A stretch of 20,092 nucleotides of DNA from a virus. Its lineage: Duplodnaviria; Heunggongvirae; Uroviricota; Caudoviricetes. How positions within the stretch are numbered: the stretch's first letter is position 1; every line of letters starts with the position of its first letter. Location of the stretch: IMG/VR virus record IMGVR_UViG_2541047908_000008, positions 1 through 20,092 of that record. One strand, written 5' to 3'. Below, piece after piece: positions 6,001-9,000 of this stretch. Made by a program: the position numbers.

Positions 6001-9000
6001 AAATTCCTTTTCCTCTTTCGTTTCCTGCGGTAGAGACATTATTCGATCGTAGTTTTTTCTGAATTTATCCAGCACCTCCGATACGGAATTGCCGGAACAG
6101 CGGCGCGCGTCGTCCGCACCATACAGAGGCGCTGGCATAATTAAATCCTTATTTTTCTAAATCAGAATGGGATGGAATCGTCGTATACAGGAGTGTTCTG
6201 CTGGTTACTACTTTGCTGCTGTTGGCTGTTTCCTGAGGTTGCAAATCCAATCTTTGCATTCAGTAATTCAAGAGTGATTGATTGACCATTTTGCCCCTGA
6301 TAAACATCAACCCTGATGTTTTCTCCGGTAATTTCTACAATGCCTCCTTCAACCAGAACGCTACGATAGTAATCCGCTTGCGCTCCCGGCTTGGCAAATA
6401 CAACGGCGCTGTAGTTTGTCCATTCTTTCTTTTTTGTCTGGCGATCGTAATACTGAACGCCAGCACGGATGTTGAATCCGATATTTTCCCCGGCCTGAAA
6501 CTCTCTTGCGGGCTTGTTTAGTCTTACAGTAATCGAATGTGCCATTAAGCAGCCGCTCCTTCTAATTCGTCTCGTCTGATGTTGTAAATGTCCTGCGCTT
6601 TGTGCTGCTCCGGTGTGCCTTCGAGCATCTTCCACGCTTTGGCGAAAGCCTGTTTAAGCTCTTCTACGGTGTTTTTCTGCATTGCTGCGTCAGTGAATGC
6701 TTTTAGAACCTGTTCAGGTGTAGGTGATGGTTTTGATTGCTTTGCTGCTGCGTTCTGCTGATGTTTATGCTCGTCTGTATCTGCATCTTTCGCATCATCA
6801 ATGCCGAACAAACCATTGAGGCAATACTTGCGTGCATAAGAGCTTGTAGCTCCCGTAACTTGTGCAGAATCCATTCCTTTCTTGCTTTCTTCCTCTCGTG
6901 CAAGAGCGGTTGCCGTATGACTGTTTTCACCATCGGTAATAGTTGCCGTGGCTTTCACGTAATACCGATCACCAATCAACACAACTTCATCGCTGATTGA
7001 TAAAAACAGGCCATTCAGTAACGGCTTAACGCCTTCAAGAATGTCTTCGCAGCTTCTGTATTTATATTTGCCGAATGAGTTGTACTGATTCTTTGGCGCG
7101 TTCAGATTCTCCTGAATAGCTGCCAGTCTTGCGTAAAATTCTTTGCTCATATGTTTGTTCTCAGAATGGACATGGCCCAAGGAAATAACGCTGATTTAAT
7201 ACTTCAGTCTTTGCCGCATTTAAAAATACGCGAACACCTTCACGATCTCCCTTCTGGCGATACATTAACGCCTGCTGCGTGTACATGCGTCTCTGTAACT
7301 TGCTCTCCTTCACTGTGGTTGCAAGTGACATGCATATCTCCTTCGTTACCGATTAATTCTTTCATCTGACGAATGAATTCTTCGTCTGACCAGTTATCTG
7401 TAAAACTCATGGACGGCCTTGTTGTTTCAAAATATCCCAAAGCTTTTCGAGCAAGCTTTTCATTCTTGGTTGTTTAAAGTCTGCTCCGGTTAAAATATTT
7501 TTTCGTGAATGCTGTACCGATAAAATCGGGTTGAAAGGGCGAACCGATGCCGCCCCTGCAATAGCGAACTGTTGCATAGGATGCTCCTTCTGTTTGATTG
7601 CATAACGAAAACGCCTCGAGTGAAGCGTTATTGGTATGCATATAAAAAGGCCCTCACACTGGAGGGCAAAGAAGATTTCCAATAATCAGAACAAGTCGGC
7701 TCCTGTTTGGTTACGAGCGACATTGCTCCGCGTATTCACTCGTTGGAATGAATACACAGTGCAGTGTTTATTCTGTTGTTAGTGCCAAAAATAAAGGTCG
7801 ACTATGCGGCCTCGGAAGGAAGTCCAATCATCTTATTCAAATCTTCTACCCGTAAAGCAGGAAGTGCTGTACTTGCTTTATCTGCTTCTTTTGGTAGCAA
7901 TTCTTTGCTTTCAGGCCAAACTTCAATAAGTCGCTTAACTGTTGTGACTGAGTTCAAAGCAGCCCATACATTTGATTCGATATCCTTTTTCAAGGCTTCA
8001 AGGTTTTGTTGCAATGCGCAGATTTCATCAAACCTTTTTGTTATTTCGTGTTCTGCGTCAAACATGCATTTATCTTTGGTTGGAGTAGGGAGCAATATAT
8101 CTTCGCCGTTGCCGTCTTTCCCATATGAATGCCATCCAACCCTTCTGCCAGATACAGTCAGATAAATTGAAGTAGAACGAACATCGTATGAGTAAAATGA
8201 ACATCCCATCTTTTTAAGTTCTTCACTTATAGCTACCAACTTGGATGATAACTGATCCACTTCCTCAGTTTTCTTTTTACCGCCAAACGCAATAACTCTG
8301 GCGTCAAGTGCAAGCTGGTTCTTTAACTTTGTTACTTCTTCAAGTTCAGTGAAAACCCCAGACTTAATTAAAGCGTTACGAGCGATTTCCTCTTTCATTC
8401 TCGTAGTTAAGCGGATTGATGACATATTAATTCCTCTCAAATAAGTGGTTTGCTGCCTAATTTCATTTTCTGGCGACCAACACAAGTCACACCCATTTCA
8501 CTGCGTGGCTTGCGGTAGTAAAGATTGTGCCTGTCTTTTAACCACATCAGGCTCGGTGGTTCTCGTGTACCCCTACAGCGAGAAATCGGATAAACTCTAT
8601 TCACCCCTACAGAGAGAATGATGGAGATTCACCGATGAGTAACTGGTGGCAGGAACTATTACGTTTCTTCCTGCGTGGTCTTACGCTACAACAGTTAATT
8701 CATATGCTTATTATTTTAATTGCCTTGATAATAATCACCCCAGCATCAATTAAAGAGTGGGTAGATATAAGGAATCCTGAAATACTTCCAGATCACTGGA
8801 TGTATTACGCAATGCTTTTGTGTATCAGTTATGTTCTGAACAGGGTGATGGAGTTTATATTTCTGGCATCTTCAGACAGATATAAAAAATATCTCAGTAA
8901 GAGAGATGAGGCTAAAGTAATTGTGGAGACTGAGCGCCTGTTCAATTCTCTGAGTATTCAGGAAAAAGAGGTTTTAGCATTTGCTGTTATGGCAAATAAC

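What the first reader, a model, noticed from the sequence alone, without database searches (positions are those of the whole stretch)
7802..8425. Low-GC 207-aa ORF of unknown function in the ral/ea10 position between N and cIII
This leftward gene has a good RBS, is distinctly AT-rich compared with its lambda-type neighbours, and is followed by a terminator before cIII. It occupies the variable slot where lambda carries ral and ea10. I recognise no motif in it. A pL-driven early gene of foreign composition next to a SieB-like gene is a plausible host-takeover, anti-restriction or exclusion function.
Basis: partly seen in the sequence, partly recalled or inferred. Interest (0 to 1): 0.65.

Follow-up and report, generated by a model that had tools for sequence, protein, structure and literature searches.

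The report
Nmad5-family early gene in lambda's ral slot
The ORF is a real, conserved early gene of a lambda-like prophage, and it belongs to the catalogued but functionally uncharacterised phage protein family Nmad5, so it is a known kind of gene whose job has not been worked out.

Summary
Window 7802-8425 (-) is a 207-aa gene with a good RBS. Its GC is 40%, against 47% for the window. Terminator-like hairpins follow it before cIII. It lies at the place where lambda carries ral and orf28.

The protein is a full-length member of Pfam PF18757, Nmad5 (E 3e-71). Copies 97-98% identical exist in phages mEp235 and HK542, and the gene is in 211 of 5426 complete E. coli genomes. RefSeq already labels it "Nmad5 family putative nucleotide modification protein".

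That label looks misleading here:
- None of about 30 ORFs scanned, from int to the lysozyme gene, is a modification enzyme.
- The confident model (pLDDT 85) is a helical bundle with no solved relative and no enzyme-like fold.
- Conservation is strongest in a C-terminal WPE...LN..IGLP module.
- In other phages the gene is stand-alone, usually among replication and recombination genes.

The only experiment on the family is in Dhillonvirus. A K-to-E change at the residue equivalent to R165 here lets the phage escape Tmn immunity, deleting the gene does not, and the gene is toxic to clone.

Best reading (about 0.4): a dispensable, non-enzymatic early protein that acts on the host. Function is unproven. 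The sequence is not novel; interest is moderate to low.

The parts
7802..8425 (-). Coding sequence of the 207-aa stand-alone Nmad5-family protein (stop codon 7802-7804, ATG 8425-8423)
   Evidence: ORF list. Pfam PF18757 covers residues 4-203 against profile 1-206, E 3.1e-71. phrog_1965, E 1.4e-83. 97-98% identical to mEp235 gp37 and the HK542 and HK244 ORFs. dN/dS 0.31.
8432..8438 (-). Shine-Dalgarno-like GAGAGGA, 6 nt upstream of the ATG
   Evidence: Read directly from the sequence.
7806..8504 (-). Mosaic cassette (gene plus about 80 nt of leader) that takes the place of lambda ral + orf28
   Evidence: blastn against lambda places the flanks at window 7640-7805 = lambda 33923-34087 and window 8505-8612 = lambda 34373-34480. 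In 80 close loci the homology most often ends at about 8500-8525 on one side, and at about 7750-7775 or 7625-7650 on the other.
7904..7945 (-). Codons for residues 161-174 (T-T-V-K-R165-L-I-E-V-W-P-E-S-K). This is the start of the most conserved block. R165 aligns with the Dhillonvirus residue whose K-to-E change escapes Tmn.
   Evidence: Conservation over 194 relatives. BLASTP alignment with phage SM_A8 Nmad5 puts its K216 opposite R165. The escape mutation is reported in PMC11846954.
7805..7864 (-). Codons for the C-terminal tail, residues 188-207 (LPALRVEDLNKMIGLPSEAA). It carries the near-invariant L196, N197, G201, L202 and P203, after a low-confidence linker.
   Evidence: Conservation. 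pLDDT is below 50 for residues 183-191 and a helix is predicted at 193-199.
7650..7667 (-). Intrinsic-terminator-like hairpin (GCCCTC...GAGGGC, then CTTTTTATAT) downstream of the gene
   Evidence: Terminator scan and RNA fold. It lies inside the segment 94% identical to lambda's ral-ea10 intergenic region.
7610..7629 (-). Second terminator-like hairpin, just upstream of the cIII-like gene
7407..7577 (-). cIII-like gene, the next gene downstream in the pL operon (context, not part of the cassette)
   Evidence: Translation begins MQQFAIAG.... Window 7554-7639 matches the start of lambda cIII, 33443-33522. The same ORF lies downstream in 53 of 76 close loci.
9196..9507 (-). N antiterminator, upstream in the same operon. 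A pL-like promoter lies at 9732..9704 (context).
   Evidence: Pfam N_peptide, E 1.1e-39. Promoter-like site.

Best explanation
The ORF is a translated early gene of a lambda-like prophage integrated next to a ybhC-like host gene. It encodes a stand-alone member of the Nmad5 family (PF18757).

**Expression (inferred from layout).** The gene is transcribed from pL. Transcription needs N-mediated antitermination to read through the region antisense to sieB and on past the hairpins before cIII. The simple consensus scan found no promoter of its own.

**Protein (predicted).** The 23-kDa product is an elongated helical bundle: helices at 8-72 and 127-158, with a small beta insert at 73-116. A small C-terminal module follows at 160-207.

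**Mechanism (my commitment, about 0.4).** It is not a nucleotide-modifying enzyme. It is a dispensable accessory protein that acts early in infection by binding a partner through the invariant C-terminal module (T162, L166, W170-P-E172, E175-L176, P178, L196-N197, G201-L-P203). The partner would be a host protein, or a replication or recombination complex. The effect would be to alter how the host senses or resists the replicating phage, so this is a counter-defence or takeover role rather than a core phage function.

**What is shown and what is inferred.** Shown: family membership, cassette behaviour, purifying selection, and the absence of modification genes from the scanned early region. 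Inferred: the non-enzymatic nature, the binding surface and the host-directed role.
For: **Identity.**
- Pfam Nmad5 full length, E 3e-71; phrog_1965.
- Source and RefSeq names.
- BFVD fold matches are other Nmad5 proteins, best TM 0.75, E 7e-13.

**Not enzyme-like.**
- The model is confident (pLDDT 85), yet Foldseek against the PDB gives nothing better than E 0.28.
- Profile search of PDB sequences finds nothing.
- Few polar residues are conserved (R5, K21, R43, E172, E175, N197), and conservation concentrates in the last 45 residues.
- The pI is 6.2, so the protein is neither a DNA mimic nor strongly basic.

**No modification partners.** None of about 30 window ORFs from int to lysozyme is a kinase, aGPT-Pplase, thymidylate-synthase homologue, glycosyltransferase or methyltransferase.

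**Accessory cassette.**
- It is a single-gene mosaic unit with sharp junctions.
- It is in 211 of 5426 E. coli genomes.
- An IS3-family element disrupts it in Stx2a phages.
- It lies on the opposite strand inside structural modules in Dhillonvirus and Vibrio phage 138.
- All homologues checked with Pfam match Nmad5 only (six proteins), and nearly all of the 150 best database relatives are about 200 aa.

**Link to immunity (PMC11846954).**
- K216E or K296E in Dhillonvirus Nmad5 gives escape from Tmn.
- Deleting the gene does not give escape.
- The wild-type gene could not be cloned because it appeared toxic.
- That lysine aligns with R165, inside the most conserved block.

**Early timing.** The gene is in the pL operon here. 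In about 20 diverse phages its neighbours are DNA pol A, PD-(D/E)XK and DUF2800 exonucleases, SSB and annealing proteins, primases and helicases.
Against: - No experiment exists on this protein or any lambdoid orthologue.
- The Tmn result comes from a homologue about 32% identical over the aligned C-terminal half. Its authors interpret it as a DNA-modification effect.
- Lack of a recognisable fold does not exclude a new enzyme. R5, K21, R43, E172, E175 and N197 could form an active site.
- The neighbourhood evidence fits a role in the phage's own replication or recombination equally well.
- No binding partner was identified.
- PADLOC gives no match. It holds defence-system models, so this bears on a defence role rather than a counter-defence one. 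No anti-defence library was searched.
- Absence of a promoter rests on a simple consensus scan.
Confidence: 0.4

Rival explanations
1. Accessory factor for the phage's own DNA replication or recombination. A helical adaptor would load, bridge or protect replisome or recombination components (Erf, SSB, exonuclease). It would not be aimed at host immunity.
For: In about 20 diverse loci the flanking genes are mainly replication or recombination genes:
- DNA pol A (3 loci), PD-(D/E)XK (3), DUF2800 (2), VapE (2), Enc34 SSB (2), AAA_24 (2), plus YqaJ, DnaG and ThyX.
- Salmonella phage SP-058 has ThyX, Nmad5, exonuclease, primase, SSB in that order.
- L110 has a Gp2.5-like SSB directly upstream.
- eiAU and ECO1230-10 have helicases next door.

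In the window, Erf, SSB and Abc2 lie in the same operon. Tmn-25 senses T2 RIIB, described there as a replisome-associated early protein (PMC13001434). A replisome-linked Nmad5 could therefore be sensed in the same way.
Against: - There is no single conserved partner gene.
- The gene is missing from many close relatives with the same recombination module, including lambda itself.
- It is IS-disrupted in Stx2a phages and deletable in Dhillonvirus.
- In Dhillonvirus and some Vibrio phages it sits in head or tail modules, on the opposite strand in Dhillonvirus and Vibrio phage 138.
Confidence: 0.25
2. A nucleotide or DNA base-modification enzyme, or an essential cofactor of one, as the family name and the RefSeq product name imply.
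For: - In YuA, M6 and SN1-like Pseudomonas phages the Nmad5 gene lies inside the thymidine-hypermodification cassette. Its neighbours there are the 5-hmdU kinase, aGPT-Pplase and the dU hydroxymethylase (PMC9476957; HMUDK hits).
- In SP-058 it is next to ThyX.
- The Dhillonvirus paper calls it a DNA modification enzyme.
Against: - The association was seen in one of about 20 lineages sampled.
- No modification gene was found from int to lysozyme in the window.
- The protein is always stand-alone.
- The confident model has no enzyme-like fold and no solved relative.
- From memory, not verified here: the thymidine hypermodification pathways were reconstituted in vitro without this protein, and lambdoid virion DNA is not known to be hypermodified.
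- The paper that named the family could not be read.
Confidence: 0.1
3. A defence or superinfection-exclusion gene expressed from the prophage, like SieB or Rex, that protects the lysogen from other phages.
For: - The composition is low-GC and moron-like, similar to the neighbouring sieB.
- The gene behaves as a cassette.
Against: - The gene is in the pL operon in the sense orientation, and pL is repressed in a lysogen (established lambda biology).
- No promoter-like site lies in 8426-8634 on the minus strand.
- PADLOC gives no match.
- Homologues occur in strictly lytic phages, including N4-like, Dhillonvirus and YuA-like ones. A lysogen-protection role makes little sense there.
Confidence: 0.07

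Closest known systems
Orthologues in sequenced lambdoid phages: mEp235 gp37 (AFM76255), the HK542 and HK244 'HK24401' ORFs, Kapi1, PhiR12 phages, Stx1a-converting phages
   Same: - 96-98% amino-acid identity and the same 207-aa length.
- The same slot, downstream of N or Nun and upstream of cIII.
   Different: - The upstream neighbour varies: different N types, Nun, or ral in 12 of 80 loci. SieB is upstream in only 2-3 loci.
- ea10 is present downstream in 15 of 80 loci.
- All are annotated as hypothetical proteins, and none has been studied.
Dhillonvirus Nmad5 (PhiSMS22 CDS6, PhiSMA8 CDS7; Yamashita et al. 2025, PMC11846954)
   Same: - Full-length Pfam Nmad5, E 2.8e-55.
- The C-terminal block is shared, 32% identical over residues 103-203. 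The Tmn-escape lysine aligns with R165.
- Stand-alone and dispensable.
   Different: - 254-334 aa, with a longer and divergent N-terminal half.
- Lies on the opposite strand between head genes of a lytic siphovirus, not in an early operon.
- Its link to Tmn is experimental; nothing has been tested for the lambdoid protein.
Nmad5 of YuA, M6 and SN1-like Pseudomonas phages (YuA gp15)
   Same: - Pfam Nmad5, E 4e-56.
- 45% identity over residues 121-207, including TTVKRLIEVWPE.
   Different: It is embedded in the thymidine-hypermodification cassette. The window has no such genes.
Lambda Ral (restriction alleviation), with orf28 and Ea10
   Same: - The same genomic slot. Lambda-homologous DNA flanks the cassette on both sides.
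- The same pL-driven early expression context.
   Different: - No sequence or profile similarity to Ral or Ea10.
- 207 aa against 66 aa for Ral.
- ral and the Nmad5 gene lie side by side in 12 of 80 relatives, so they are not simple alternatives.
- ral is about four times more frequent in E. coli genomes: 875 against 211 of 5426.

Membership tests
Nmad5 (Pfam PF18757, phrog_1965) | Full-length match to the family HMM above the curated threshold | tested here: met
   240.1 bits against a 27-bit cut-off, residues 4-203 on profile 1-206. phrog_1965, E 1.4e-83.
Nmad5 (Pfam PF18757, phrog_1965) | Conserved C-terminal signature (T..L...WPE..ELLP ... LPA...LN..IGLP) and N-terminal R-L, G-G motifs | tested here: met
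   All are present: T162, L166, W170, P171, E172, E175, L176, P178, L188, P189, L196, N197, G201, L202, P203, R5, L6, G48, G49. Each is conserved in at least 80% of 194 relatives and is near-invariant in the 86-sequence alignment.
Nmad5 (Pfam PF18757, phrog_1965) | Same predicted fold as other members | tested here: met
   Foldseek against BFVD gives 11 hits at E <= 1e-3. Those that carry a specific name are Nmad5 proteins, e.g. eiAU E7EKT1 and C130_2. Best TM 0.75.
Nmad5 (Pfam PF18757, phrog_1965) | Gene-neighbourhood association with base-hypermodification genes (5-hmdU kinase, aGPT-Pplase, dU hydroxymethylase). My recollection is that this association gave the family its name. | tested here: not met
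   None among about 30 window ORFs. Among about 20 diverse loci it was seen in the YuA-like lineage only. This is a contextual feature, not a sequence criterion, so it lowers 'works in nucleotide modification' rather than family membership.
Nmad5 (Pfam PF18757, phrog_1965) | Biochemical activity in nucleotide or DNA modification | not testable with these tools
   No activity is reported for any member in the papers found. The paper defining the family is not in the library.
Ral-type anti-restriction proteins | Sequence or profile similarity to lambda Ral | tested here: not met
   hhalign probability 0.1%.
Ral-type anti-restriction proteins | Position in the pL operon between sieB/N and cIII | tested here: met
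   Position alone does not define the family.
Known anti-phage defence proteins (PADLOC-DB) | Match to any defence-system protein model | tested here: not met
   0 families at E <= 1.
DNA-mimic anti-restriction proteins (Ocr/ArdA type) | Strongly acidic protein with a DNA-like charge pattern | tested here: not met
   pI 6.2, with a basic N-terminal third at pI 9.4. No fold match to such proteins.

The most novel reading that the evidence does not exclude
Nmad5 proteins are not base-modification factors at all. They would be a very widespread class of non-enzymatic early phage effectors (at least 2300 clusters at 50% identity). Their invariant C-terminal module would dock onto a conserved host component. 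Immune sensors such as the membrane NTPase Tmn would read that surface, or it could be retuned to blunt them. In lambda-like phages the effector would travel as a single-gene cassette in the ral anti-restriction slot.
Probability: 0.25. Interest if true: 0.6.

Novelty: already known. Interest (0 to 1): 0.33.

Why it matters
The sequence is not new. Near-identical genes are in GenBank phages, and RefSeq already files it under Nmad5.

Two points are worth keeping:

1. **The standard product name probably misdescribes these genes.** "Putative nucleotide modification protein" is applied to hundreds of lambdoid prophage genes. Here the protein stands alone in lambda's ral slot with no modification partner and no enzyme-like fold.

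2. **The family is large and barely studied.** The only genetics points to an interplay with host immunity (Tmn). Genetically tractable lambda-like phages such as mEp235 and HK542 carry an orthologue in a well-understood early operon. That makes the function of the whole family directly testable.

Tried and rejected
2. **BFVD fold search** returned only other uncharacterised Nmad5 proteins. The afdb50 library was not available.
3. **NCBIfam and PADLOC** gave no match.
4. **'NMAD' in the DefensePredictor paper.** The domain in the validated and predicted defence systems there is Nmad2, not Nmad5, so it is irrelevant.
5. **rIIB/rIIA idea.** Tmn-25 is triggered by T2 RIIB. I tested whether the 328-aa and 724-aa ORFs next to Nmad5 in the N4-like phage SP-058 are rIIB and rIIA. 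They are an exonuclease and a primase, so the idea is rejected.
6. **Homology to the genes it displaces.** hhalign against lambda Ral and Ea10 found nothing.
7. **Strict allelism with ral.** Rejected, because ral sits directly upstream of the gene in 12 of 80 relatives.
8. **SieB orientation.** I first noted the antisense SieB as unusual. Lambda has the same layout, so I withdrew this.
9. **Searches that gave nothing usable.**
   - The cluster-member look-up gave almost no taxonomy.
   - The paper that named Nmad5 is not held.
   - Searches for PF18757 and phrog_1965 in the literature found nothing.
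Full report
**1. Observation**

The ORF list shows a minus-strand ORF at 7802..8485 (227 aa from a TTG). GAGAGGA lies at 8438-8432, six bases before this ATG. Homologues begin at the same MSSIRLT, and R5 and L6 are among the best conserved residues, so 8425 is the start. RefSeq annotates the same 624 bases.

The gene's GC content is 40.1%. The window as a whole is 46.9%, N is 47% and erf is 45%. The adjacent sieB is similarly low at 39%. The AT-richness is real but modest.

Between the stop codon (7802) and the cIII-like start (7577) lie two terminator-like hairpins on the coding strand, at 7667..7650 (followed by CTTTTTATAT) and at 7629..7610. The whole intergenic RNA folds far better than shuffled controls, z = -5.4.

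The gene is under purifying selection, with median dN/dS 0.31 over 61 distinct alleles. It has thousands of relatives.

**2. Position**

The window is the early region of a lambda-like prophage. In order it contains:
- a pectinesterase-like host gene, then int (with the lambda arm-binding domain) and xis;
- an Ea22-like gene, Abc2, an SSB-like ORF and Erf;
- the cIII-like gene, this gene, SieB on the plus strand, and N;
- a pL-like promoter, a P63C-domain ORF and cI;
- cro, cII, O and a DnaB-like helicase;
- NinB, RusA, Q and a lysozyme.

Lambda has the same layout: N(-), SieB(+), orf28/ral/ea10(-), cIII(-).

blastn against lambda fixes the junctions:
- Window 8505-8612 equals lambda 34373-34480 (94%), the stretch between orf28 and sieB.
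- Window 7640-7805 equals lambda 33923-34087 (94%), the stretch just downstream of the ral stop codon.
- Window 7554-7639 equals the start of lambda cIII.

A 699-bp cassette at 7806-8504 therefore takes the place of lambda ral + orf28, and ea10 is absent.

In 80 close relatives from viral contigs, homology to the window breaks at the same points: about 8500-8525 on one side, and about 7750-7775 or 7625-7650 on the other. The flanking genes vary. Several N types, Nun or cI-like genes lie upstream, and cIII lies downstream in 53 of 76 loci.

The cassette is not a strict allele of ral. ral lies directly upstream of it in 12 of 80 loci, and ea10 directly downstream in 15 of 80.

**3. Identity**

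The protein is a full-length member of Pfam PF18757, "nucleotide modification associated domain 5" (Nmad5). The match is E 3.1e-71, 240 bits against a 27-bit threshold. It also matches phrog_1965, whose function is unknown.

Copies 97-98% identical are annotated as hypothetical proteins in phages mEp235, HK542, HK244, Kapi1, the PhiR12 series and Stx1a-converting phages. The gene occurs in 211 of 5426 complete E. coli genomes under the RefSeq name "Nmad5 family putative nucleotide modification protein". For comparison, ral occurs in 875.

An exhaustive profile search finds 2309 clusters at 50% identity. Almost all are stand-alone proteins of about 200 aa. Six divergent homologues checked with Pfam contain nothing but Nmad5. 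As a sequence, this is already known.

**4. What the protein looks like**

AlphaFold2 with a 21-sequence alignment gives a confident model, pLDDT 85 and pTM 0.70. Its parts are:
- three helices at 8-72;
- a small beta-containing insert at 73-116;
- a long helix at 127-158;
- short helices at 163-182;
- a low-confidence linker at 183-191;
- a final helix at 193-199.

Over 194 relatives the conserved positions are R5, L6, I14, A18, K21, G23, R43, G48, G49 and G93, and above all the C-terminal block: T162, L166, W170-P171-E172, E175-L176, P178, L188-P189, L196-N197 and G201-L202-P203 (near-invariant). The pI is 6.2.

This pattern has few conserved polar residues, a helical scaffold and an invariant terminal module after a flexible linker. 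It looks like a binding protein rather than an enzyme. That is an inference, not a demonstration.

**5. Context in other phages**

The name comes from guilt by association. I could confirm that association in one lineage only. In YuA, M6 and SN1-like Pseudomonas phages the gene sits between the 5-hmdU kinase/aGPT-Pplase genes and the dU hydroxymethylase (PMC9476957).

Elsewhere the context differs:
- **N4-like Salmonella phage SP-058:** ThyX, Nmad5, exonuclease, primase, SSB.
- **eiAU and ECO1230-10:** next to helicases.
- **Vibrio myoviruses and Dhillonvirus:** inside tail or head modules, on the opposite strand in Dhillonvirus and Vibrio phage 138.

A Pfam census of 72 flanking ORFs from about 20 divergent loci is dominated by replication and recombination genes. 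These are DNA pol A, PD-(D/E)XK, DUF2800, VapE, Enc34 SSB, AAA_24, helicases, YqaJ and DnaG. In the window, none of about 30 ORFs scanned is a modification enzyme.

**6. Experimental knowledge**

Only four papers in the library mention Nmad5. One contains experiments, Yamashita et al. 2025 (PMC11846954). It reports that:
- Dhillonvirus mutants escaping the Tmn defence system carry K216E (PhiSMA8) or K296E (PhiSMS22) in Nmad5;
- reverting the mutation restores sensitivity, and introducing it confers escape;
- deleting the gene does not confer escape;
- the gene could not be cloned, apparently because it is toxic.

I aligned the PhiSMA8 protein with the window protein. K216 falls on R165, in the TVKRLIEVWPE helix that opens the most conserved block.

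A 2026 preprint shows that another Tmn is triggered directly by T2 RIIB, which it describes as an early, replisome-associated membrane protein (PMC13001434).

A charge reversal with an effect that deletion lacks argues that this surface makes a specific contact. The direction of that contact (sensed by Tmn, or able to block it) is open.

**7. Mechanism and rivals**

My best reading (about 0.4) is a dispensable, non-enzymatic early protein. It would be expressed from pL under N antitermination and would act through its C-terminal module on a host target or on replication complexes. The consequences would be for host sensing or resistance, that is, a counter-defence or takeover accessory.

Support:
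- cassette behaviour and patchy distribution;
- moron-like placements in other phages;
- disruption by an IS3-family element in Stx2a phages;
- viability of the Dhillonvirus deletion, the toxicity on cloning, and the Tmn genetics.

The main rival (about 0.25) is a factor for the phage's own replication or recombination, supported by the neighbourhood census. The "nucleotide modification" reading (about 0.1) is supported only in YuA-like phages. A lysogen-expressed exclusion function (about 0.07) fits poorly with the sense orientation in a repressed operon, the lack of a promoter-like site, and the presence of homologues in strictly lytic phages. The remaining probability is "something else".

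**8. Novelty and verdict**

The finding is real and well placed, but it is an already catalogued gene. Its function is unknown, and the interest lies in that gap. The family is large and early-expressed, and its database name is probably misleading outside one phage lineage. Lambda genetics offers an easy way to test what it does. Interest 0.33.

Noticed in passing
window 13599-15992 (+): The DnaB-like replicative helicase is 797 aa. Its DnaB_C match is split in two, and a LAGLIDADG/Hom_end homing-endonuclease match lies at about aa 393-454. This looks like an intein inside the phage helicase.
   Followed up: partly
window 9949-10884 (-), with terminator-like hairpin 9939..9922 (-): A 311-330-aa P63C-domain ORF occupies the slot between cI and pL where lambda has rexA/rexB. 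A strong terminator-like hairpin follows it. It is a candidate lysogen-expressed accessory or defence gene. PhiR12_1 has a different 341-aa gene in the same slot.
   Followed up: no
L165 (Stx2a-converting phage LC616032) 1238-3025: In 48 Stx2a-converting phages the Nmad5 gene lacks about the first 33 codons (tblastn matches begin at residue 34; the remaining ORF is 152 aa from a GTG). The break abuts an IS3-family element with two transposase ORFs. The gene is therefore inactivated in that lineage.
   Followed up: partly
window 7590-7810 (-): The intergenic RNA downstream of the gene is unusually structured, z = -5.4. Besides the two terminator-like hairpins, the fold shows a perfect 14-bp hairpin further upstream in the transcript, at about 7725-7760 by my count. 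Its 7640-7805 part is 94% identical to lambda's ral-ea10 intergenic region, so the structure is probably a conserved pL-operon element.
   Followed up: partly
window 8635-9174 (+): A SieB-family gene (Pfam E 3e-20) lies antisense to the pL operon. It has its own terminator-like hairpin at 9181..9208 (+), just 3' of the stop codon of N on the opposite strand. I first thought the orientation odd, but lambda has the same arrangement.
   Followed up: yes
window 6162-6545 (-): The ORF between Erf and Abc2 ends in the SSB-like tail ...DDSIPF and sits where mEp235 has its SSB gene, but it has no Pfam match at E <= 1e-3. It may be a divergent SSB.
   Followed up: no
window 1-2489: The window starts in a pectinesterase-like host gene, next to an integrase with the lambda arm-binding domain. 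From memory, ybhC flanks attB-lambda in E. coli, so the prophage probably sits at the lambda attachment site.
   Followed up: no
L004 (YuA) 5710-7445; L005 (SP-058) 4363-5627: In two unrelated lytic lineages the Nmad5 gene is adjacent to a thymidylate-synthase-type gene. In YuA this is a ThyA-like dU hydroxymethylase, and in SP-058 it is ThyX. This could be a coincidence of module order or a hint of a link to dTMP metabolism.
   Followed up: no
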